Assembly (NCBI GenBank): GCA_902790625.1
Contig: CADASP010000011.1
Span: forward strand, 9,856 to 73,855
Direction: 5' to 3'
Source: an uncultured Prevotellaceae bacterium
GTDB lineage: Bacteria > Bacteroidota > Bacteroidia > Bacteroidales > Bacteroidaceae
DNA: 64,000 nucleotides
Shown here: one piece after another, positions 33,262-43,438 of the stretch
Layout: each line of letters begins with the position of its first letter
How positions within the stretch are numbered: the first letter of the stretch is position 1
Notes under the pieces: model-generated
Databases searched by the model: none
Seen by the model: the letters and a program-made list of their open reading frames with translations, nothing else
What the model was told of the DNA's origin: nothing
Translations under genes and position numbers: made by a program

Positions 33262-33855
33262 ATGAAGCGAATGAAGACCGCGCTCTTGGCCGTCTGTTCA
33301 ATATTGTTAGCGACCATCAGTCCCTCTGACTGCCATGCTCAGCAAGTGGCCCTGAAGACCAACCTGCTCTATGACGCAACTACCACACCTAACCTCGGAT
33401 TGGAGATGGGAGTGGGCAAGAAGCACTCCATGCAGGTGTTCTATGGACTCAACCCCTTTAAGTTTAATCACGGCGCCGACCGAAAGTACCTCAAGCACTG
33501 GATCGTCAACCCCGAGTATCGTTACTGGTTCTGCCACCGTTTCAACGGCTCTTTCGTCGGCGTTCATGCCTTCGGAGGCGAGTACAGCGCCAGCAACATC
33601 AAAATGCCACTCGGATGGTGGAAAGAGCTGCGCGACCATCGCTTCGAGGGATGGTACATCGGAGCCGGCGTCAGCTACGGCTACCAGTGGGTGCTCTCGC
33701 AGCACTTCAACTTCGAGGCTGCCATTGGGTTCGGTGCCGCATACATCAACTACGAGAAGTTCAAATGCGCCAACTGCCAATATAAAGAGGGTAGTGGCGA
33801 CAAGACTTATGTGGGCCCCACCAAGGCAGCCCTCTCATTAGTATATATGTTCTAA
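33262..33855 (+). CDS. DUF3575 outer-membrane beta-barrel protein (fimbrial locus)
   Basis: VALKTNLLYDATTTPNLG.E, W.V.PEYRYWFC.RF.G.F.GVH, G.SYGYQW, YVGPTKA.LSLVY.F. Confidence 0.9.
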   Translation: MKRMKTALLAVCSILLATISPSDCHAQQVALKTNLLYDATTTPNLGLEMGVGKKHSMQVFYGLNPFKFNHGADRKYLKHWIVNPEYRYWFCHRFNGSFVGVHAFGGEYSASNIKMPLGWWKELRDHRFEGWYIGAGVSYGYQWVLSQHFNFEAAIGFGAAYINYEKFKCANCQYKEGSGDKTYVGPTKAALSLVYMF

Positions 33856-33921
33856 CAGCTGACCCACATCACGCCCATTAACACCATTCCCCCCATAAGA
33901 CCCATTCACCCCATCAATACA

Positions 33922-35400
33922 ATGAAATACTTCCTCATCATAGCAACCGCCCTGCTGGCCACTACCACCGCCCGCGCGCAGAACACACTGCGCCTCTCGG
34001 ACGACAACGATGTGGTGGCTGCGAAAAACCTGCAGGTGACACCCGCCGAAGGGCGAACCATCCTCACACTCGACATCGTGCTCGACAACCTGCGCGTGCC
34101 CAGTAACCGCTACCGCGCATTCACACCCGTCATCCGCTCGCTCGACGACACCACCCTCGTCACGCGCATGAAGACGCTCATCGTCAGCGGACGCACACAG
34201 GACATCATCTTCGAGCGCGACGGCATCGACGAGCTCTATCGCGACAACTGCGAGAAGATACGCCGCTACAACGGCACCGAGCAGACATACGCCTACACCG
34301 ATGCCATCGAGCGACAGCCATGGCACCAGAACGCACAGGTGCTGCTCGAATGCGACCTCTGCGGATGCGGCGACAAGAAGAAGAACCAGGAGTTCCCACT
34401 CGCCACGCTCAAGCAGCTCGACCCATGGGAGCTCACAGAGCTGGCCAACCAGGAGCCTGACACCTACAAGCCTATGCGCGAGCTGCATGGCACGGCTTAC
34501 ATCACCTTCGTCGTTGACCGCTGGGAGATGAAGCCCGACTATATGGACAACTATCGCGAGCTGCGCAAGATCACCGACACGCTCGACATCATGGTCGCCG
34601 ACCCCAACATCACCGTCAACCGCATCAAGATTCACGGTTGGGCCAGCCCGGAGTCGCCCTATAACCACAACCACATGCTGGCCACCAACCGCGCCAAGAG
34701 CCTCACAGACTGGCTGCGGCAGAACTATCAGCTGCCCGTCAGCGCCTTCGCTCCAGCAGAGGCCACACCCGAGAACTGGTTAGGTCTGCAAGAGGCATTG
34801 CCCAACCTCGATGCCACCCTGCTGCCCCACAAGAGCGAGATTGCCAACATCGTCAGCGACCTGCTGCAGCAGGATAGCACCGTCATCGCCAAGACAGCCG
34901 ACGCCACCGAGGCACGCATCAAGAAGCTCTACCCGCAGGAGTATATGTACCTGCTGAAGAACATCTATCCCGGTCTGCGCCGCTCCGACTATGAGATCAC
35001 CTTCAACATCAAGCAGTTCAACACCATCCAGGAGTGCCTCGACATCTACCGCACCAAGCCCCACCAGCTCTCACGCCACGAGCTGTGGCAGGTGGCACAG
35101 ACGATGAAGCCCTTCAGCGACGAGTACAACCGCGTGATGCAGACCACCCTCAACTACTATCCCGACGATGAGACGGCCAACGTCAACCTCGCTGCCGTCG
35201 CTCTCTCGCAGCGCGACATCCTCAAGGCTAAGACGCTCCTGCAGCATGCTGGCAACGGCGGTGCCGCCGAACAGCTCCGTGCCGTCATCGACATCGTAGA
35301 GGGCAACTACGACACCGCCAAGCGTCACCTCGACGCAGCAGAGCGCAAGGGCATCAACGTGGCCAAGAACCGCGAGGCCATCCGCCTCCTCACCCAGTAG
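33922..35400 (+). CDS. DUF3868 / OmpA-like / TPR pilus-associated protein
   Basis: Signal peptide; N-terminal Ig-like DUF3868-type region; I.I.G.ASPE.P..HN..LA..RA..L, ENW.GL, IYP.LRR.DY, TPR tail AN.NLAA.AL. Confidence 0.85.
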   Translation: MKYFLIIATALLATTTARAQNTLRLSDDNDVVAAKNLQVTPAEGRTILTLDIVLDNLRVPSNRYRAFTPVIRSLDDTTLVTRMKTLIVSGRTQDIIFERDGIDELYRDNCEKIRRYNGTEQTYAYTDAIERQPWHQNAQVLLECDLCGCGDKKKNQEFPLATLKQLDPWELTELANQEPDTYKPMRELHGTAYITFVVDRWEMKPDYMDNYRELRKITDTLDIMVADPNITVNRIKIHGWASPESPYNHNHMLATNRAKSLTDWLRQNYQLPVSAFAPAEATPENWLGLQEALPNLDATLLPHKSEIANIVSDLLQQDSTVIAKTADATEARIKKLYPQEYMYLLKNIYPGLRRSDYEITFNIKQFNTIQECLDIYRTKPHQLSRHELWQVAQTMKPFSDEYNRVMQTTLNYYPDDETANVNLAAVALSQRDILKAKTLLQHAGNGGAAEQLRAVIDIVEGNYDTAKRHLDAAERKGINVAKNREAIRLLTQ

Positions 35401-35420
35401 CCCCGTGCCCCTCCCCTCCA

Positions 35421-35448
35421 CCGGTCGGGTGGGCGGCGTATTCGCCGC
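35421..35448. repeat. Solo variant of the 32.7-kb palindromic unit
   Basis: ccggtcgggtgg-gcggcg-tatt-cgccgc. Confidence 0.65.
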
Positions 35449-35485
35449 TAAGCACAAAGAAAAGAACTCTATGTGAAATAGATAT

Positions 35486-36349
35486 ATGGATGACAAGCGC
35501 ATCATTAGATTCGACTATGCCATGAAGCGAATGCTTCGCGACAAGGCGAACTTCGCAATCCTCGAAGGACTCATACAAGTCTTGACAGGGCGAAAGCTGC
35601 GCATCGTCGAGATCCTCGAGAGCGAGGGGAACCAGTACGACAAGGACGACAAGTATAATCGTGTCGACATCATGGCTAAAGACCAAAGCGACGACATCAT
35701 CATCGTCGAGGTTCAGCTCACCCGCCAGCGACACTACTATGAGCGTATACTCTATGGCACAAGTAAGGCCATAGTAGACCACATCAGTCTTGGAGAAGGC
35801 TACGAGAAGGTGAAGAAGGTCTACAGCATCAACATCCTTTATATGAACTTCGGAGAGGGCAACGACTACCTCTATCACGGCACAACAAAGTTCATCGGGG
35901 TGCACACACACGACCAACTCAACCTGAGTGACAAGGAGAATGGGGCAATCGTGACAAAGACGGCCGCTGACATCTTCCCAGAGTACTACATCATACGTGT
36001 CAACGAATTCGACGACATGGCTACCACACCCCTCGAAGAGTGGATGGACTACCTGAAGAATGCGCGCATTCGCCCCGACACCACCACACCAGGCCTTCAG
36101 GAGGCTCGCGAAAAGCTCAACATCCTGCGCATGAACCATCAGGAACGGCTCGCATACGAGCGGGTGCTCATTGGACAGATGAACGAGAACGAGTCGTTTG
36201 AAACCGCTCGACACGACGGGTTCGAAGAAGGACTGGAAGAAGGAAGACGAAAGGCAATAAAAGAAATGACACAGCGGCTGATTGATGCGGGCATCGATCC
36301 GAAGGTAATAGCTAAAGCTACGGGAACCACACCCATCCCAACAGCATAA
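35486..36349 (+). CDS. Rpn family PD-(D/E)XK nuclease-like protein (copy 1)
   Basis: FDYAMKRMLRDKANF.ILEG, RVDI.AKD...IIVEVQ, ERILYG.SKAI, L.EW..YLKN, C-terminal EEG.EEG + HTH-like tail. Confidence 0.9.
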   Translation: MDDKRIIRFDYAMKRMLRDKANFAILEGLIQVLTGRKLRIVEILESEGNQYDKDDKYNRVDIMAKDQSDDIIIVEVQLTRQRHYYERILYGTSKAIVDHISLGEGYEKVKKVYSINILYMNFGEGNDYLYHGTTKFIGVHTHDQLNLSDKENGAIVTKTAADIFPEYYIIRVNEFDDMATTPLEEWMDYLKNARIRPDTTTPGLQEAREKLNILRMNHQERLAYERVLIGQMNENESFETARHDGFEEGLEEGRRKAIKEMTQRLIDAGIDPKVIAKATGTTPIPTA

Positions 36350-36468
36350 CGAATTCATTAACCCCCCAAAACAATTACACGTACCGGCAAACAAAAGTAA
36401 AACAAAGAAACAACAAATCAATTTTTTTTAATTCATCTTTATTATTAACTCTTTAAAAACAAAAGTTT

Positions 36469-38466
36469 ATGAAAAAACTAAGTTTATTTGCGCTCGCAGC
36501 CGCCGGACTCTTCCTCGGCGCCTGCTCGAGTGACAAGGATGAGATTGCTGAAGTGCAGCCCATCAATGTCGAAGAGGACGGCGGAAAGCAGTTCATCGCC
36601 CTCAACATCAATCTGCCCGTTGACAACGGTTTCGCTACCCGTAGTGATGTGACCGATGACAACAACTATGCCGACGATCCTGCTACTTTCGAGCTGAACG
36701 ACGGTATGGAGTCGGAGTACAAGGTCAACGACGCTACCCTGATTGTCTTCCGTCCCGCTGCAAGTGGAAAAGAGGCTGATGCTACTTTCGTCGCTGCTTA
36801 CCAGATCAATCCTGAGCCTTGGACAATGTCCAGCGACAAGCAGGTGACGGACTACAGCACGAAGATTGTGCAGAAAGTCGGTACGACCGTTGCAGAAGGT
36901 GACCTCGCTCTGGTTATCCTGAACAAGAACAACCTGATTGCTTTTGATGCCTCAGGCGCTCTGGAGGTTGGCGGTGCAGCATTCTCTGGCACTTTCGGCG
37001 ATTTCCAAAAGACTATTGCAACTAACGCTACGGGTGCCCAGACTGCAGCCATGGAGATGACCCAAAATGGCTTCTATATGGCCAATTCGCCTCTTACTGA
37101 CAAAGATGGTTCCAGCACTACCGTACCTACTGGTGCCAAGACGCAGACACTGGTTGTGATTGAGAATGTCTATGAGACAGAGCAAGAGGCTCGCGATGGC
37201 AAGTGCGCTGAGATCTATGTGGAGCGTGGTATGGCAAAGGTGACCGTCAACGGAACACCGGCAAAGGCAACGCTTGACACTCAGTACAACGGTGGTGCTA
37301 CTCCTGTTGACCTGAACATTACCATCGATGGCTGGGTGCTCGACCAGACGAACCAAAAGTCATACTATGTGCGTTCGACTGAGGGGCACGACGACTTCAT
37401 TTCCATCATCAACGGGAAGGCTAACAAATACCGTTATATTGGTATCTCCCCAATCGTAGAGGGTAATCCTGGTGCCTATAAGTATCGCACTTATTGGGCA
37501 AAGGATCCTAACTACACGAAGGATTTGGCTTCGCCTGCAACGTTTGGCGACCTCATCGCTGACGAGCTGACAAAGACGACTGTAAACGATGCTGCTCTTT
37601 CTACCGAGTTCGGTGACACGCATCCGCAGTATTGCTACGAGAATACCTTCGACGTGGCTCACCAGTCGGTGAACAACACCACGCTGGTTCGCCTGAAGGT
37701 GACTGCAAAGGTTGGAAGTACTGCTGACGACCTCTACATCATCAATGGCAACAAGAGCATGATCTACAAGGAGGCTGACGTTTTGACGCTCATCCAGAAT
37801 AAGGCCCTCGAATTTGTCAAGAGCAAGAACCTGACTTTGAAGACCGGCGAGACTCTCACTTCAGCTGACTTCACGGTCACTCTGAGCGCACGTGATGCTG
37901 CTGGCTACAAGAACATTTCTGCAATTACGTTCTTGGCTGCTGGCAAGGCTAAGGTGATTGATGCCGATGTTGCTAAGATTCCTGCTGATGCTGACATTCT
38001 TGCTGACGTTGTCAAGCTCTACAAGAACAATACAATCACTGGTGGCGTATCTGCTAATGATGGTTCTATCCTCTGCTATGAGGGTGGTGTTTCTTACTAC
38101 ACCATTCGTGTGAAGCACTTCGGCGACCAGCTCACTCCGTGGAAGACTTGGGAGGGAACAACTGGCTATACGAATGTTGTGGCTCCCACGCTGGCAAATG
38201 GCTCCTATCCTGGTTCAATCGGCAATATTACCGTAGGTACTGCTGAAGCTACTGCTGCAACTGCTGCCAACAACTACCTTGGCCGCTATGGCATGCTCCG
38301 CAACAACTGGTATGACATCAAGGTCAACAAGATCAAGTATCTGGGTGAGGCTGTTCCCACCGACTACTCCAAGGATCCCACTCCCGATGATGAGATCGAC
38401 GGCTACATCGCTGTGCAGATCAACATCCTCAGCTGGGCAAAGCGTACTCAGTCTTGGGATCTCTAA
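36469..38466 (+). CDS. Mfa1/FimA-like major (shaft) type V pilin
   Basis: Lipobox LGAC; propeptide site FATR|S; GFYMANS, IYVERGMAKV, YCYENTF, C-terminal YLGRYGMLRNNWY.I.V..I..LG...INILSWAKRTQSWDL. Confidence 0.9.
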   Translation: MKKLSLFALAAAGLFLGACSSDKDEIAEVQPINVEEDGGKQFIALNINLPVDNGFATRSDVTDDNNYADDPATFELNDGMESEYKVNDATLIVFRPAASGKEADATFVAAYQINPEPWTMSSDKQVTDYSTKIVQKVGTTVAEGDLALVILNKNNLIAFDASGALEVGGAAFSGTFGDFQKTIATNATGAQTAAMEMTQNGFYMANSPLTDKDGSSTTVPTGAKTQTLVVIENVYETEQEARDGKCAEIYVERGMAKVTVNGTPAKATLDTQYNGGATPVDLNITIDGWVLDQTNQKSYYVRSTEGHDDFISIINGKANKYRYIGISPIVEGNPGAYKYRTYWAKDPNYTKDLASPATFGDLIADELTKTTVNDAALSTEFGDTHPQYCYENTFDVAHQSVNNTTLVRLKVTAKVGSTADDLYIINGNKSMIYKEADVLTLIQNKALEFVKSKNLTLKTGETLTSADFTVTLSARDAAGYKNISAITFLAAGKAKVIDADVAKIPADADILADVVKLYKNNTITGGVSANDGSILCYEGGVSYYTIRVKHFGDQLTPWKTWEGTTGYTNVVAPTLANGSYPGSIGNITVGTAEATAATAANNYLGRYGMLRNNWYDIKVNKIKYLGEAVPTDYSKDPTPDDEIDGYIAVQINILSWAKRTQSWDL

Positions 38467-38481
38467 ATCCTGCATTCTCTT

Positions 38482-38551
38482 TCAGGCCACTGGCCTGACA
38501 TGAATACCCTTTAACGTTGGCCGCCCCTCCTCGCGAGTGGCGGGGCGGCCA
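38482..38551 (+). terminator. Hairpins after the major pilin gene (attenuator or stabiliser)
   Basis: tcaggcc-act-ggcctga (38482-38498) and tggccgcccc...ggggcggcca (38518-38551). Confidence 0.6.
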
Positions 38552-38731
38552 CTTCCTTAAAAAAACAAGCGTGCCTACACAGGCTGCAACACAGCCGGGA
38601 ACACTTCGGGCACCGGCAGGCTTAGGGCACCGCCCCGCCAAACAGCCCGTACATCGATGCACACCAGCATCCACCAAATGTGAACACAACGTGCGCAGAC
38701 ATCCTCTGTACACACCATATAATAAAAAATA

Positions 38732-39622
38732 ATGGACGACAAGCGCATCATCAGTTTCGACTGGGCCGTGAAGCGAATGCTCCGCGATAAGGCGAATTTC
38801 GGCATCCTCGAAGGGCTGTTCCAAGTCCTCACAGGCCGTCAGATGCGCATCGTCGAAATCCTCGAAAGCGAGGCAAACCAGCTGAGCGACACCGACAAGT
38901 TCCGCTCGAACTTTGTTCGCTTGCTACCAGAGGGACGCAAGAATCGTGTCGACATCAAGGCCAAGGACGAGAACGGCAACATCATCATCGTCGAGGTGCA
39001 GGTGAATCGTGAGATACACTACCTCGAACGCATACTCTACGGAGCCAGCAAGGCCATCACAGAGCATATCGCACTCGGACAAGGCTACGAGCAGGTGAAG
39101 AAGGTATATAGCATCAGCGTGCTCTACTTCAACATCGGCGAAGGCAGTGACTACCTCTATCACGGAACAACGAACTTCGTCGGAGTACATTCCAACGACA
39201 CGCTGAAGATGAACGACAAGGAGAGGAAGGCATTGAAGGTGGAAACACCTGCCGACATCTTCCCGGAGTACTACCTCTTGCGTGTCAACCAGTTCAACGA
39301 CGTCGCCACAACTCCGCTCGAAGAGTGGCTCGACTACCTGAAGAACCAGCGCATCAGTCCCGATACCACAACGGCAGGGCTGCAGCAGGCAAGGACACGA
39401 CTGGCAGAGATGAATATGAGCGACGACGAGAAAGCGGCATACTACCGTCACCTCGAAAATCTCATGATAGAGAAAGAAGACATCTCCACCGCGCGCGCCG
39501 AGGGCAGGGAAGAAAGTGCCAGGGCCATCGCCCACCGCCTCCTCAGTGCCGGCATAGACAAGGCCATCATCACACAGGCCACAGGCATCACCGAAGAGGA
39601 GCTCAGCCTCATGGCCCAATGA
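38732..39622 (+). CDS. Rpn family PD-(D/E)XK nuclease-like protein (copy 2), with a 13-aa insertion
   Basis: Same motifs as copy 1; extra RSNFVRLLPEGRK (38903-38941) before NRVDI. Confidence 0.9.
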   Translation: MDDKRIISFDWAVKRMLRDKANFGILEGLFQVLTGRQMRIVEILESEANQLSDTDKFRSNFVRLLPEGRKNRVDIKAKDENGNIIIVEVQVNREIHYLERILYGASKAITEHIALGQGYEQVKKVYSISVLYFNIGEGSDYLYHGTTNFVGVHSNDTLKMNDKERKALKVETPADIFPEYYLLRVNQFNDVATTPLEEWLDYLKNQRISPDTTTAGLQQARTRLAEMNMSDDEKAAYYRHLENLMIEKEDISTARAEGREESARAIAHRLLSAGIDKAIITQATGITEEELSLMAQ

Positions 39623-39666
39623 CATCAAACACACAGAATAAATAATAAGGAACAAAATATCAACAA

Positions 39667-40539
39667 ATGACCGACAAGCGCATCATCAGTTTCGACTGGG
39701 CCGTGAAGCGAATGCTCCGCGACAAGGCGAATTTCGGCATCCTCGAAGGACTCTTCCAAGTCCTCACAGGCCGTCAGATGCGCATCGTCGAAATCCTCGA
39801 AAGCGAGGCTAACCAGCAAGATGCCACTGATAAGTTCAATCGTGTTGACATCAAGGCTAAAGACGAGAACGGCGAGATTATCATCGTGGAGGTGCAGGTG
39901 TCGCGCGAGGTGCATTATTTTGAACGCATCCTCTACGGTGTCAGCAAAGCAATCACCGAGCACATCTGCCTCGGAGAGACCTACAATCAGGTGAAGAAGG
40001 TGTACAGTATCAACATCCTCTACTTCAATCTCGGTGAAGGCACTGACTATCTCTACCATGGCACCACGCAGTTCGTGGGGGTACACACCAAGAAATGTCT
40101 GACGATGACAAAGAAAGAGCGCGATGCCCTCGGAGTTTCGTCGACGGCAGATGTCTTCCCGGAGTACTACCTCATTCGCGTCAACGAGTTCAATCAAATG
40201 GCCACCACACCGCTCGAAGAGTGGCTCGACTACCTGAAGAACCAGCACATCAGCCCCGACACTACCGCCCCTGGACTTCAGGAGGCTCGGCAGAAGCTGG
40301 AAGTGATGAACATGACACGCAACGAAAGGCTTGCCTACGAGCGACATCTGGAGAACTTGATGATTGAGAAGGATGTCATAGAGACAGCACAGGCCGACGG
40401 CTATGAACAAGGTCGCGAAGAGACTGCTATGAAGATTGCTCAGCGCATGCTGGCTGTCGGCATTCAGCCAGATATCGTTGCACAGACAACGGGCATCACA
40501 GTAGAGCAGCTCGAAACCTACGAAAAGCCCACTCGATAA
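39667..40539 (+). CDS. Rpn family PD-(D/E)XK nuclease-like protein (copy 3)
   Basis: Same motifs; first ~140 nt nearly identical to copy 2. Confidence 0.9.
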   Translation: MTDKRIISFDWAVKRMLRDKANFGILEGLFQVLTGRQMRIVEILESEANQQDATDKFNRVDIKAKDENGEIIIVEVQVSREVHYFERILYGVSKAITEHICLGETYNQVKKVYSINILYFNLGEGTDYLYHGTTQFVGVHTKKCLTMTKKERDALGVSSTADVFPEYYLIRVNEFNQMATTPLEEWLDYLKNQHISPDTTAPGLQEARQKLEVMNMTRNERLAYERHLENLMIEKDVIETAQADGYEQGREETAMKIAQRMLAVGIQPDIVAQTTGITVEQLETYEKPTR

Positions 40540-40577
40540 CATATAGACGAAGAGAACAATAAAAAAAGAACGACATA

Positions 40578-41792
40578 ATGAAAAGACTGAACCTGAAAAC
40601 CTGGCTCCTGGCAGCTTCTGCTGCGGTCGCCTTCACAGGCTGCGACCTGATGAAGGAAGACCTCGAAGACTGTCCCACAGGCCTGTATGTCAACTTTGTC
40701 TACGACTACAACATACAGCGTTCCGACATGTTCAAGGACCACGTCGGAGCTGTGATGCTCTATGTCTACGACGACCAAAACCGCATGGTGGCAAAGAAGA
40801 TCGTCGGCGACGGATTCTTCAAGGCATATGGCCGTTATGTACACATCTCTGAGGAAGAGTTGCAGCCCGGCACCTATAGCCTCCTCGCCGTGGCCATGCA
40901 GAAGAACTTCAGCGACGCCCTCGCAGCACCCGGTGCCAAGTACCGTGTGGCCGGCGACGCCATCGGCGACCAGCGCTCGCAGCTCTCCATCACCCTCGAC
41001 CACAGCCCCGCGCCGGCACTCGCCCCGTCTGTTGTGGCACTGCCCGGCACTCGCGCCACCACATTCGTGTCCACCGTGGCACCCTTAGACACCCTGTGGC
41101 ACACCCTCAGCACCATCGTCACACCCGCCAGCCAGCATCCTCTGCAGCTGACACCCGCCATGCTCACCCCCGCTGCCACCGAGTATACCTGGCAGCGCGA
41201 CGGCAGCATCAAGAGCAACGGCGTGAGCACCGTCACCGTGGTCAAGGGAGAACCCACCTACGCCACCATGAGCCTCATCCGCGACACCAAGCACCTGAAC
41301 ATCTCGCTGCGAGAGCTCGATACCCCGGAGAATGTGGTTGACACCGACTATGATGTCTTCATTATCGATGACAATTCCTACCTCGACTGTGATAATAATC
41401 TGGTTCAGCGGGGTGACAGTGTCATCTACAGACCCTATGCACAGTGGACTACTATCTTTGATGGCAAAGGTTTGGTAGCCAATGAGCATTCGGCGCACTA
41501 TGACTTGATGTTCAATCGCATGATGTACAACGCTACTAATGCCGATGATAATGCCATTCTATGCATACGCAAGAAGAGCACAGGACAGGAAGTTGCTGTC
41601 ATCAACCTGCCTTACATCCTCAGTCAAGGACGCACGGCATACGAGATTAATGCTTACCAGCCACAAGAGTACCTCGACCGTGAATATGATTATCGTTTGG
41701 AGTTCTTCATCAAGAATGGTCGTTGGCTCTTTATCGACATTCATATCGATATCCTGTCATGGGCTAAACGGATACAATATGTGGATCTTTAA
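40578..41792 (+). CDS. FimB/Mfa2-family anchor pilin
   Basis: Lipobox FTGC followed by DLMKEDLEDCPTGLYVNFVYDYN; no early TR propeptide site; DTLWH, MSLIRDTK.L.I.L, YLDREYDY.L.FF, I.ILSWA.RIQ..DL. Confidence 0.9.
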   Translation: MKRLNLKTWLLAASAAVAFTGCDLMKEDLEDCPTGLYVNFVYDYNIQRSDMFKDHVGAVMLYVYDDQNRMVAKKIVGDGFFKAYGRYVHISEEELQPGTYSLLAVAMQKNFSDALAAPGAKYRVAGDAIGDQRSQLSITLDHSPAPALAPSVVALPGTRATTFVSTVAPLDTLWHTLSTIVTPASQHPLQLTPAMLTPAATEYTWQRDGSIKSNGVSTVTVVKGEPTYATMSLIRDTKHLNISLRELDTPENVVDTDYDVFIIDDNSYLDCDNNLVQRGDSVIYRPYAQWTTIFDGKGLVANEHSAHYDLMFNRMMYNATNADDNAILCIRKKSTGQEVAVINLPYILSQGRTAYEINAYQPQEYLDREYDYRLEFFIKNGRWLFIDIHIDILSWAKRIQYVDL

Positions 41793-41842
41793 ATAATGAA
41801 TGTACCGCTACGATATTTTACCATAATTTTTTAGATAAAAAT

Positions 41843-43438
41843 ATGATGATGAATAACTGGGTTTGGAAAGCGATGTCGGTGTTGCTGGCATTGCCACTGC
41901 TCGTGGCATGCCAATGGATAACCGAGGATCACGCCTGGGATGATGGCATCATCAATTCTGATGATAATTTAAATAGGCGCTTTGTCAACTTCAGCATCAG
42001 CGTCAATACCGGCAATAATCCAACACGTGCCGGGGAGACTCCATTGGGTGGAGAGAATGGTGATGGACGCGAGGCAGGCTTCCATCGTGAGAATACGGTC
42101 ACAGGCGCAACCTTTTTCTTCTATCAGGATGATAATGGCATTAATTGCCAGGGCGGAACGCAAATAGTGCATGAGGTCTATTATGTTTTTACACCAGAAA
42201 CCATTAAACGCGATAATGCAGGAACTGAAGAGGCTGACTTGAACAACGATACACGTCCAGGTATCACTCCTGATGAGTATGTATTCACCACAGGCGACCA
42301 GCTGCTCGATGAGGCTATCAAACCTGCATCAGCCTATCATGTCATTGCTGTACTCAATGCCAACTTAACAGGGAAAAACCTCAATACGGTGGAAAAAGTG
42401 CGCAACTACACCTTCACGCAAATTTATAATTCTAACAATAGCAATAATCCTGAGCAGTTCTCAGATTTCATCATGACCTCTGAGCAGGACTATACCATGC
42501 AACTCAGCGACGGCAATGCATGGGAAATCACTTCTACTCCTACGGCAGATTATTATCGCGCCAAGAATTTCATTCGCGTGGAGCGCCTCACTGCCCGCAT
42601 TGATTTCTGGGCTGCTGGTTCCAATGGATACAAAGATACTTATAGCACACCAGGCTATGAGTATACCGTGAAAAAATCCAATGGCGACCCAACAAATGAC
42701 CGTTTCGTGCTCACGGGCGTCATGCCTTTCAATCTCAATGCAGGCAATGGAACCAGTGGAGGGGAATTCCTTATCAAACGACTGGCATCAGACATGACCA
42801 ACGACCGTGTTATCACCTATTTGGCAGATGAGACCACCACCAATTATGTCATCGACCCCGCAACGCTGAACAAAACGGATGGAAACCTCACCTATTATCA
42901 AAATACACTTGCCAGTTTGGTGCCCTCGGGAGGTACTTCCCTTGCTGATGTCACCACGTTAGCTAACAACAGCCGGTATCATAGTGTGGCTGCACGCCAT
43001 GCAGCAGTGCTTGCCGAGGGGAGCAGTGCAGGCTTCACCACACTTACCGACAACGGGCGCTCGGGTGAGGACATCATTGTGGGCTATCCTATGGAGAACA
43101 CCCTTTGGAGCGCATCGCTGCTCTATAATTATGCCACAGGATTAGCCCTGGAGGGCGACTATTATGCCGGTGGAACCGGTACCCCGGAACACCGTGTGTA
43201 CTACGGTTACCTTCGCCATCAAGGAACGGCCTCTTCCTACCAGGCATTGCGGGGTGAAGACATGCCTACAGATGCCACTGCTGTAGGCAGTGTCGCCATG
43301 GAGTATGGTATCGTGCGTAACAACATCTACCGTATCTGTATTCAGAGCATCACTTCTGATGTGGAGAATCCAAAAATCACCCTACTTATAAAGGTCAAGA
43401 AATGGGATAAGTTCGTGCATACGCCCATCATCATGTAG
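41843..43438 (+). CDS. Minor type V pilin A (cassette 1)
   Basis: Lipobox LVAC-QW; NPTR|A; GGENGDGREAG, FIMTSE, VERLTARIDF, GYPMENT, C-terminal YGIVRNNIYRI.I...KKW. Confidence 0.85.
   Translation: MMMNNWVWKAMSVLLALPLLVACQWITEDHAWDDGIINSDDNLNRRFVNFSISVNTGNNPTRAGETPLGGENGDGREAGFHRENTVTGATFFFYQDDNGINCQGGTQIVHEVYYVFTPETIKRDNAGTEEADLNNDTRPGITPDEYVFTTGDQLLDEAIKPASAYHVIAVLNANLTGKNLNTVEKVRNYTFTQIYNSNNSNNPEQFSDFIMTSEQDYTMQLSDGNAWEITSTPTADYYRAKNFIRVERLTARIDFWAAGSNGYKDTYSTPGYEYTVKKSNGDPTNDRFVLTGVMPFNLNAGNGTSGGEFLIKRLASDMTNDRVITYLADETTTNYVIDPATLNKTDGNLTYYQNTLASLVPSGGTSLADVTTLANNSRYHSVAARHAAVLAEGSSAGFTTLTDNGRSGEDIIVGYPMENTLWSASLLYNYATGLALEGDYYAGGTGTPEHRVYYGYLRHQGTASSYQALRGEDMPTDATAVGSVAMEYGIVRNNIYRICIQSITSDVENPKITLLIKVKKWDKFVHTPIIM

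What the first reader, a model, noticed from the sequence alone, without database searches (positions are those of the whole stretch)
36179..40539. Positionally conserved internal Met in all three Rpn genes: candidate small antitoxin (RpnS) starts
Seen: in-frame ATG at 36179 (codon 232 of copy 1), 40360 (codon 232 of copy 3) and 39464 (codon 245 of copy 2 = 232 + the 13-aa insert). It is conserved although the context differs (LIGQM versus LENLM). It would give 56-, 52- and 59-aa C-terminal products covering the divergent tail. Established: Rpn genes can encode a small C-terminal antitoxin from an internal start. Inference: the same intragenic toxin-antitoxin design in Bacteroidota, with three specificities.
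Basis: partly seen in the sequence, partly recalled or inferred. Interest (0 to 1): 0.62.

Follow-up and report, generated by a model that had tools for sequence, protein, structure and literature searches.

The report
Rpn nuclease genes with candidate internal antitoxin starts
Three neighbouring Prevotella genes belong to the known Rpn "toxic nuclease with its antidote inside" family, and the flagged internal methionine lies exactly where E. coli starts its small antidote protein; whether this bacterium starts translation there could not be shown.

Summary
Three paralogous Rpn-family PD-(D/E)XK nuclease genes (287, 296 and 290 aa) each have an in-frame ATG, at 36179, 39464 and 40360. These would give 56-, 52- and 59-aa tails.

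New support:
- The Met column aligns with E. coli RpnA M244, the experimentally proven RpnA-S start.
- The AlphaFold model of the 59-aa tail has E. coli RpnA-S (PDB 7TH0) as its best hit in the whole PDB.
- The tail is Pfam HTH_Rpn_C.
- The first helix of the three tails measures 38, 30 and 34 residues, steps of exactly one 4-residue unit. That is the feature that sets RpnS/RpnL specificity in E. coli.
- Genome paralogs carry several to dozens of such EGxx units.

Against:
- The Met is conserved only in one subfamily (95% and 83%). It is 13% in the wider family, where Arg prevails.
- There is no internal Bacteroidota promoter motif, no A-rich or unstructured initiation region, and only 0-1 of 4 favourable upstream adenines.
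- A second Met 16 codons upstream (M216) is even better conserved.

Verdict: a probable new member of a known system, already foreshadowed for Bacteroides fragilis by Zhong et al. 2023. This scan has noted Rpn/RpnS loci in more than 200 other genomes.

The parts
35486..36349 (+). rpn copy 1 (287 aa): PD-(D/E)XK nuclease domain plus C-terminal HTH_Rpn_C tail
   Evidence: ORF. PF12784 E 3e-22. TIGR01784 'Rpn family' E 5.8e-21.
38732..39622 (+). rpn copy 2 (296 aa; has a 13-aa insert next to the active site)
   Evidence: Its tail aligns with E. coli RpnA 238-292 at E 4e-7. Close homologs of 283 aa (length difference = 13 aa) were taken to lack the insert, from lengths only.
39667..40539 (+). rpn copy 3 (290 aa)
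   Evidence: AF2 model of the full length: nuclease domain to about residue 192, then helices 218-243, 249-263, 268-275 and 279-284.
36179..36181 (+). internal in-frame ATG of copy 1 (codon 232); candidate RpnS start giving 56 aa
   Evidence: Context ggacagATG has none of A-3, A-6, A-12, A-13 (read; criteria from Baez et al. 2019).
39464..39466 (+). internal in-frame ATG of copy 2 (codon 245); candidate RpnS start giving 52 aa
   Evidence: Aligns with RpnA M244, the validated iTIS.
40360..40362 (+). internal in-frame ATG of copy 3 (codon 232); candidate RpnS start giving 59 aa
   Evidence: The 59-aa product folds as three helices and its top PDB hit is 7TH0 RpnA-S.
36131..36133 (+). alternative upstream in-frame ATG (M216) of copy 1; would give 72 aa
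   Evidence: Invariant in all 9 genome paralogs. Met in 121/123 and ATG in 81/83 homologs. The alternative residue elsewhere is Leu.
39416..39418 (+). alternative upstream in-frame ATG (M216 column) of copy 2; would give 68 aa
40312..40314 (+). alternative upstream in-frame ATG (M216 column) of copy 3; would give 75 aa
36215..36250 (+). three 4-residue units DGFE-EGLE-EGRR in helix 1 of the copy 1 tail
   Evidence: Met to Gly of the turn is 38 residues.
39500..39511 (+). single 4-residue unit EGRE in helix 1 of the copy 2 tail
   Evidence: Met to Gly of the turn is 30 residues.
40396..40419 (+). two 4-residue units DGYE-QGRE in helix 1 of the copy 3 tail
   Evidence: Met to Gly of the turn is 34 residues.

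Best explanation
The three genes are RpnL/RpnS-type toxin-antitoxin genes of the known Rpn family.

Shown:
- Each encodes a PD-(D/E)XK DNA endonuclease (RpnL) whose last 52-59 residues form the HTH_Rpn_C three-helix domain.
- The flagged ATG is the positional homolog of the proven E. coli RpnA-S start.

Inferred:
- The tail is also made as a separate small protein (RpnS) from that ATG.
- RpnS binds through the long first helix and holds its own full-length nuclease inactive.
- The first helix differs by one 4-residue unit between copies (30, 34 and 38 residues), so each short form should pair only with its own long form. That would give three insulated pairs.

Unknown: how the ribosome would start there, because Bacteroidota ignore Shine-Dalgarno sites and no internal promoter or favourable initiation context is visible.
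For: Family and catalytic core:
- PF12784 and TIGR01784 'Rpn family' hits.
- D61, E75 and Q77 are invariant in all 9 genome paralogs. I read these as the catalytic D...E-x-Q core by motif comparison with RpnA; this is my inference.

Homology of the Met and the tail:
- BLASTP of E. coli RpnA against copy 2 aligns 58 tail residues at 38% identity, E 4e-7. It puts RpnA M244 on copy 2 M245 (KHKESLM / RHLENLM).
- M244 is the start that Zhong et al. abolished by mutation.
- E. coli RpnB, RpnC and RpnE keep (L/M)M-T at the same spot.
- The AF2 model of the copy 3 tail has three helices, pLDDT 74.7.
- Its best hit among 350,542 PDB chains is 7TH0 'E. coli RpnA-S': prob 0.97, TM 0.86, rmsd 1.1 A.
- The tail family is Pfam PF27070 HTH_Rpn_C.

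Conservation of the Met:
- Met in 117/123 close homologs, with variable neighbouring columns.
- ATG in 69/83 Bacteroidales genes.
- Where the Met is lost it is replaced by Arg or Ala, and Arg, Ser or His occupy the column in other subfamilies. The position is therefore not a hydrophobic core site that needs Met.

Repeats and helix length:
- The 4-residue repeats start 12 residues after this Met, within the published range of 8-20.
- Paralogs in the same genome carry from a few to dozens of EGxx units.
- The three copies differ by exactly 4 and 8 residues in helix 1.
- The tails are 37-46% identical, against 64-75% for the nuclease part.

A free-standing tail gene:
- A natural deletion derivative in a gut metagenome keeps only the promoter, 24 leader codons and a 58-aa ORF.
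- That ORF starts at the equivalent Met, with a TAATG stop-start overlap. It was seen on at least 10 contigs.
Against: - No TAnnTTTG promoter box lies inside any of the three genes. None lies at a conserved position in 83 homologs.
- Third-codon positions upstream of the ATG are not A-rich: GC3 is 0.68 and A3 is 0.08.
- Local RNA structure at the ATG is average (z -0.14), whereas the 5' end of the genes scores about +1.0, the top of the range.
- The two preceding codons prefer C-ending forms, GCC ATC.
- The window's own contexts have 0, 1 and 1 of the four favourable adenines (read; criteria).
- In the full-length model the Met lies in the middle of a helix that begins at residue 218.
- Only 13% of wider-family representatives have Met in this column.
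- 47 of 91 representatives have no Met at all between the M216 column and the repeats.
- M216 is better conserved.
- No repeat-number variation is seen among close orthologs of the three copies.
Confidence: 0.55

Rival explanations
1. Only the full-length protein is made. The Met is an inherited residue of the HTH_Rpn_C domain. The tail acts in cis as the dimerisation or self-inhibitory domain, and the helix-length ladder merely keeps the three paralogous nucleases from forming mixed dimers.
For: There are no initiation signals of any kind at the ATG. The Met lies inside a continuous predicted helix 218-243. The Met is absent from most of the wider family. Bacteroidia ribosomes do not use Shine-Dalgarno sites, so the E. 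coli mechanism cannot simply be transferred.
Against: Met-specific conservation (95% and 83%) occurs at a column where other subfamilies carry Arg, Ser or His. The position coincides exactly with the proven E. coli start. Tail-only ORFs exist in nature.
Confidence: 0.28
2. A small C-terminal protein is made, but from the upstream Met (M216 column: 36131, 39416, 40312). This would give 72-, 68- and 75-aa products that include the whole long helix.
For: M216 is invariant in all 9 genome paralogs. It is Met in 121/123 and 81/83 homologs. The predicted helix begins at 218, just after it. Copies 2 and 3 have A-3 and A-6 there (read). RNA around it is slightly less structured, z +0.45. Of 120 small predicted tail proteins, 59 start at this column or two residues before it.
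Against: E. coli RpnA has no Met there. The alternative residue is Leu (70/123), which is typical of a hydrophobic structural site. The repeats would begin 28 residues after the start, outside the published 8-20 range. Two further AUGs lie within 6 nt in copies 2 and 3, which is unusual near Bacteroidetes starts. The starts of the small proteins are gene-caller choices in frameshifted or nonsense alleles.
Confidence: 0.13
3. Chance: three similar paralogs simply share a Met.
For: Mean column identity among the three is 78%, and four Mets are invariant.
Against: The column is kept as ATG in 69 of 83 genes from other genera that are only 50-66% identical. It also matches the E. coli start.
Confidence: 0.04

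Closest known systems
E. coli RpnA (RpnA-L / RpnA-S; Zhong et al. 2023 PNAS, PMC10400941; PDB 7TH0)
   Same: PD-(D/E)XK nuclease followed by a three-helix tail. The in-frame Met is at the homologous position (M244 vs M232/M245). The tail fold matches 7TH0. 4-residue units lie in helix 1, starting 8-20 residues after the Met.
   Different: The nuclease domain is Pfam PDDEXK_2 (PF12784), not the E. coli YhgA-type. The nuclease parts align only weakly with RpnA, with local BLASTP E 2.7 or worse. No Shine-Dalgarno site or internal promoter is found, and the host phylum does not use SD. Separate translation, toxicity and neutralisation are untested.
E. coli rpnE-ypaA and rpnC-rpnCSs (free-standing RpnS copies)
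   Same: Tail-only ORFs homologous to these tails exist in Bacteroidales metagenomes. One example is the 58-aa P0323, next to a convergent full-length rpn gene with a similar HTH end.
   Different: None lies in this window. The only tail-bearing fragment in this genome is a truncated gene remnant on another contig. Most metagenomic examples are frameshift or nonsense alleles.
Bacteroides fragilis and Clostridioides difficile Rpn proteins mentioned by Zhong et al. 2023
   Same: Same family and the same 4-residue repeat variation. The C. difficile gene yielded an RpnS when expressed in E. coli.
   Different: B. fragilis was treated only bioinformatically. I could not read the supplement, so I do not know which Met they took as the start.

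Membership tests
Rpn family (RpnL/RpnS intragenic toxin-antitoxin) | N-terminal PD-(D/E)XK nuclease domain of the COG5464 / TIGR01784 group, with an intact D...E-x-Q core | tested here: met
   PF12784 at 69-94 bits and TIGR01784 at 69-93 bits, both above cut-off. D61, E75 and Q77 are invariant in 9 paralogs; their assignment as the catalytic core is my inference from the RpnA motif.
Rpn family (RpnL/RpnS intragenic toxin-antitoxin) | C-terminal three-helix RpnS / HTH_Rpn_C domain | tested here: met
   BLASTP to the RpnA tail at E 4e-7. AF2 gives three helices. Top PDB hit is 7TH0 RpnA-S, prob 0.97. Precomputed PF27070 HTH_Rpn_C on a 99%-identical protein.
Rpn family (RpnL/RpnS intragenic toxin-antitoxin) | Variation by 4-residue units in the first helix of the tail | tested here: met
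   Helix 1 measures 38, 30 and 34 residues in the three copies. Paralogs carry from a few to dozens of EGxx units. Close orthologs of each copy show no variation.
Rpn family (RpnL/RpnS intragenic toxin-antitoxin) | In-frame start codon at the head of the tail, homologous to the proven iTIS | tested here: met
   ATG at 36179, 39464 and 40360, aligned with RpnA M244. Kept in 83-95% of the subfamily but in only 13% of the wider family.
Rpn family (RpnL/RpnS intragenic toxin-antitoxin) | Internal promoter and ribosome-binding signal serving the small ORF | tested here: not met
   No TAnnTTTG box inside the genes. No A-rich or open initiation region. Only 0-1 of 4 favourable adenines. A Shine-Dalgarno site is not expected in this phylum.
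Rpn family (RpnL/RpnS intragenic toxin-antitoxin) | Separate translation of the small protein | not testable with these tools
No Ribo-seq is available.
Rpn family (RpnL/RpnS intragenic toxin-antitoxin) | Toxicity of the long form, cognate neutralisation by the short form, and antiphage activity | not testable with these tools
   No PADLOC model matches. This needs experiments.

The most novel reading that the evidence does not exclude
In a phylum whose ribosomes ignore Shine-Dalgarno sites, the small antitoxin is still made from this codon by an unconventional route. That route could be internal initiation on the long mRNA without the usual A-rich context, or stop-start coupling as in the natural deletion derivative. 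The 30/34/38-residue helix ladder would then make three mutually orthogonal toxin-antitoxin pairs sitting inside a pilus operon.
Probability: 0.25. Interest if true: 0.5.

Novelty: new member of a known kind. Interest (0 to 1): 0.3.

Why it matters
If the small proteins are made, this locus would be a compact natural test of the published rule that helix length sets Rpn toxin-antitoxin specificity: three neighbours differ by exactly one 4-residue unit each. It would also show how a gene-within-a-gene start is recognised in Bacteroidota, which lack Shine-Dalgarno-guided initiation. Otherwise it is an expected extension of a system described in 2023 and already catalogued in Pfam.

Tried and rejected
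- Supplement of Zhong et al. (B. fragilis RpnS alignment): not held.
- B. thetaiotaomicron dRNA-seq supplements held no Rpn/PDDEXK terms.
- Local Pfam on the tails alone gave only sub-threshold helix-turn-helix noise, because PF27070 is missing from the local library.
- phmmer of copy 3 against PDB sequences gave designer PPR repeat proteins, a summed-repeat artefact.
- Internal promoter search with TAnnTTTG: nothing inside the genes and nothing conserved in 83 homologs.
- The sigma-70 scan is not relevant to this phylum and showed nothing near the ATGs.
- Synonymous-site, GC3 and RNA-folding profiles gave no initiation signature at codon 232.
- 'Any Met 8-20 residues before the repeats' across the wider family: 43% against a background of 22 +/- 16%, not outstanding.
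- Stand-alone tail genes in this genome and in the flanks of 80 related loci: none, apart from two contig-end fragments and one truncated remnant.
- Small tail-only proteins in metagenomes mostly turned out to be nonsense or frameshift alleles whose start is the gene caller's choice. They do not discriminate between M216 and M232.
- dN/dS of the tails: dN is about twice that of the nuclease part, but synonymous sites are saturated and there is no sign of positive selection.
Full report
**What is there**

The stretch holds three paralogous + strand genes:
- 35486-36349 (287 aa)
- 38732-39622 (296 aa)
- 39667-40539 (290 aa)

All three match Pfam PDDEXK_2 (PF12784) and NCBIfam TIGR01784, 'Rpn family recombination-promoting nuclease/putative transposase', above the curated cut-offs. 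No PADLOC defence model matches them.

They lie inside a type V (Mfa/FimA-like) pilus operon. The neighbours are DUF3575, a Fimbrillin_C major subunit between copies 1 and 2, an Mfa2 anchor after copy 3, and another fimbrillin.

The genome is a Prevotella. The best homologs are named Prevotella sp. MAGs, many from rumen. It holds about 20 matches to this family, nine of them at 40% identity or more.

**The observation**

The in-frame ATGs are at 36179, 39464 and 40360.

Among three paralogs with 78% mean column identity this alone means little. M1, M16 and another Met 16 codons upstream (M216; ATG at 36131, 39416, 40312) are equally invariant.

**Homology to the proven E. coli start**

BLASTP of E. 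coli K-12 RpnA (fetched, translated) against copy 2 aligns the last 58 residues at 38% identity, E 4e-7. The alignment reads KHKESLMTIAERL... over RHLENLMIEKEDI..., so RpnA M244 falls on copy 2 M245.

M244 is the internal start that Zhong et al. 2023 abolished by the K240R+E241D+M244L mutations, with loss of RpnA-S. E. coli RpnB, RpnC and RpnE keep (L/M)M-T at the same place.

An AlphaFold2 model of the 59-aa copy 3 tail (single sequence, pLDDT 74.7) has a long helix 7-32 and two short helices. Its best match in the whole PDB is 7TH0, 'Escherichia coli RpnA-S', with probability 0.97, target TM 0.86 and rmsd 1.1 A over 44 columns. The Foldseek E-value is only 0.87 because the chains are so short.

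Precomputed Pfam hits place PF27070, named HTH_Rpn_C, on a 99%-identical protein and on tail-only proteins. That family is missing from the local Pfam copy, which explains why the tails alone gave nothing.

**The 4-residue repeat hallmark**

Zhong et al. report three things:
- RpnS proteins vary by 4-residue units.
- The units begin 8-20 residues after the initiating Met, in the first helix.
- One extra unit abolishes neutralisation of the non-matching long form.

Here the units begin 12 residues after the flagged Met:
- Copy 2 has one unit (EGRE).
- Copy 3 has two (DGYE QGRE).
- Copy 1 has three (DGFE EGLE EGRR).

From the Met to the Gly of the first turn the helix measures 30, 34 and 38 residues. 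Four other paralogs in the same genome carry long runs of EGRK/EGLE/EGRA-type units (dozens in L008), giving proteins of up to 427 aa.

The tails are 37-46% identical, against 64-75% for the nuclease part. Tail dN is about twice that of the nuclease part, but synonymous sites are saturated and positive selection cannot be shown. Close orthologs of each copy (84-99% identical) show no repeat-number change.

**How conserved is the Met?**

| Sequence set | M232 column | M216 column |
|---|---|---|
| 123 close homologs (52% identity or more) | Met in 117; the rest Arg (5) or Ala (1) | Met in 121 |
| 83 genes, from other Bacteroidales genera plus this genome | ATG in 69 | ATG in 81 |
| 123 sequences: 120 cluster representatives (34-56% identical) plus the three copies | Met in 16; Arg commonest (42) | Met in 46; Leu in 70 |

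In the close homologs the neighbouring columns vary among I/L/M/Q/V and I/V/Y/N/L.

Of the 14 Bacteroidales genes without the ATG:
- two have a Met one residue earlier;
- four have one six residues later, and all four are paralogs in this genome;
- two have one four residues earlier;
- one has one eleven residues later;
- five have none before the repeats.

In the wider family, 47 of 91 full-length representatives have no Met between the M216 column and the repeats. A 13-residue window in front of the repeats is not outstandingly Met-rich: 43% against a background of 22 +/- 16%.

The alternative residues in this column are polar or small (Arg, Ser, His, Ala), not Leu/Ile/Val. This argues that the Met is not kept for hydrophobic packing. 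At the M216 column, by contrast, the alternative is Leu.

**Is there any sign of initiation?**

I found none.
- Bacteroidia ribosomes do not use Shine-Dalgarno sites. Initiation there depends on open mRNA structure and on adenines at -3, -6, -12 and -13 (Baez et al. 2019).
- The three window contexts (ggacagATG, aatctcATG, aacttgATG) have 0, 1 and 1 of these four adenines.
- Across 83 homologs, third-codon positions upstream are GC-rich and A-poor: GC3 0.68, A3 0.08.
- The two preceding codons favour the C-ending GCC ATC beyond the gene-wide usage.
- Predicted local folding at the ATG is average (z -0.14). The 5' end of the genes is among the least structured parts (about +1.0, the top of the range), which serves as a positive control.
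- The Bacteroidota -7 promoter box TAnnTTTG does not occur inside any of the three genes. It has no conserved position in the 83 homologs.
- In the full-length AlphaFold model (pLDDT 70.7) the Met lies within a helix spanning 218-243.

**Tail-only genes in nature**

A profile of the tails finds 3,742 predicted proteins of about 54-116 aa. Of the best 120, 59 begin at the M216 column or two residues before it, and 22 begin at the flagged column.

Inspection of their contigs shows that most are nonsense or frameshift alleles of full-length genes, where the gene caller simply took the first ATG. They therefore do not decide between the two Mets.

One case is more telling. P0323 (58 aa, on at least 10 contigs) is an internal-deletion derivative. 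It keeps the following, in order:
- a TACCTTTG promoter box;
- the first 14 codons of an rpn gene, at the head of a 24-codon leader ORF;
- the leader's TAA stop, overlapping the ATG of the equivalent Met (TAATG);
- the tail alone.

It lies next to a convergent full-length rpn gene whose HTH end is similar (by eye), recalling E. coli rpnE-ypaA.

In this genome no free-standing tail gene exists. There is only a truncated remnant at C9:159227-159670 and two contig-end fragments.

**Verdict**

Shown:
- Family membership.
- The tail is homologous to RpnA-S in sequence and fold.
- The Met corresponds positionally to the proven start.
- The three copies form a one-unit helix-length ladder.

Inferred:
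- A small protein is made from this codon.
- It neutralises its own long form.
- The three pairs are insulated from one another.

I rate the RpnS-from-codon-232 reading at about 0.55, a cis-only tail at about 0.28 and a start at M216 at about 0.13.

The design was published in 2023. The authors already list Bacteroides fragilis among species with RpnS repeat variation, Pfam has a family for the tail, and this scan has noted Rpn/RpnS loci in more than 200 other genomes. Those mostly had a clear internal Shine-Dalgarno site, which is absent here. This is a new member of a known kind. The one open question of some interest is how such an internal start would work in a Shine-Dalgarno-blind phylum.

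Noticed in passing
window 33262-43438: The three rpn genes are interleaved with a type V pilus operon: DUF3575, a Fimbrillin_C major subunit between copies 1 and 2, an Mfa2 anchor and another fimbrillin after copy 3. An unrelated metagenomic rpn locus (L107) also abuts a FimA-like gene.
   Followed up: partly
window 38903-38941 (copy 2 insert): The 13-aa insert of copy 2 appears to be polymorphic. Close homologs P0012, P0013 and P0015 are 283 aa with identical tails, while P0017 and P0020 are 296 aa. Absence of the insert is inferred from length only.
   Followed up: partly
codons 244-262 of the family alignment (window about 36215-36270, 39500-39530, 40396-40440): The EGxx repeat region has sharply different codon usage in 83 homologs: GC3 is 0.31-0.43 and A3 about 0.45, against 0.6-0.7 and 0.1-0.2 elsewhere. 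The Glu codon that opens the repeats is the most synonymously constrained site in the gene, z -20. This may relate to how the 12-nt units expand.
   Followed up: no
codon 190 of the family alignment (Leu in W-x-D-Y-L-K; window about 36053, 39338, 40234): Strong unexplained preference for CTG (61/83; z -13.5 for codon entropy), 126 nt upstream of the flagged ATG.
   Followed up: no
G000 C9:159227-159670 (+): Truncated remnant of another Rpn subfamily member. It keeps the C-terminal third with four EGxx units and a complete HTH end, and could be read as a 133-aa ORF.
   Followed up: partly
L107:2224-2680: Gut-metagenome deletion derivative: promoter box, 24-codon leader ORF and a TAATG-coupled 58-aa tail-only ORF. 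It is convergent with a full-length rpn gene and lies beside a HEPN/nucleotidyltransferase pair and a PDDEXK_9/AAA-ATPase gene.
   Followed up: partly
G000 loci L004, L005, L006, L008: Genome paralogs with very long repeat tracts, for example L008 at 427 aa with dozens of EGRA/KGLE units and L006 with an 8-residue EGRTQGLA period.
   Followed up: no
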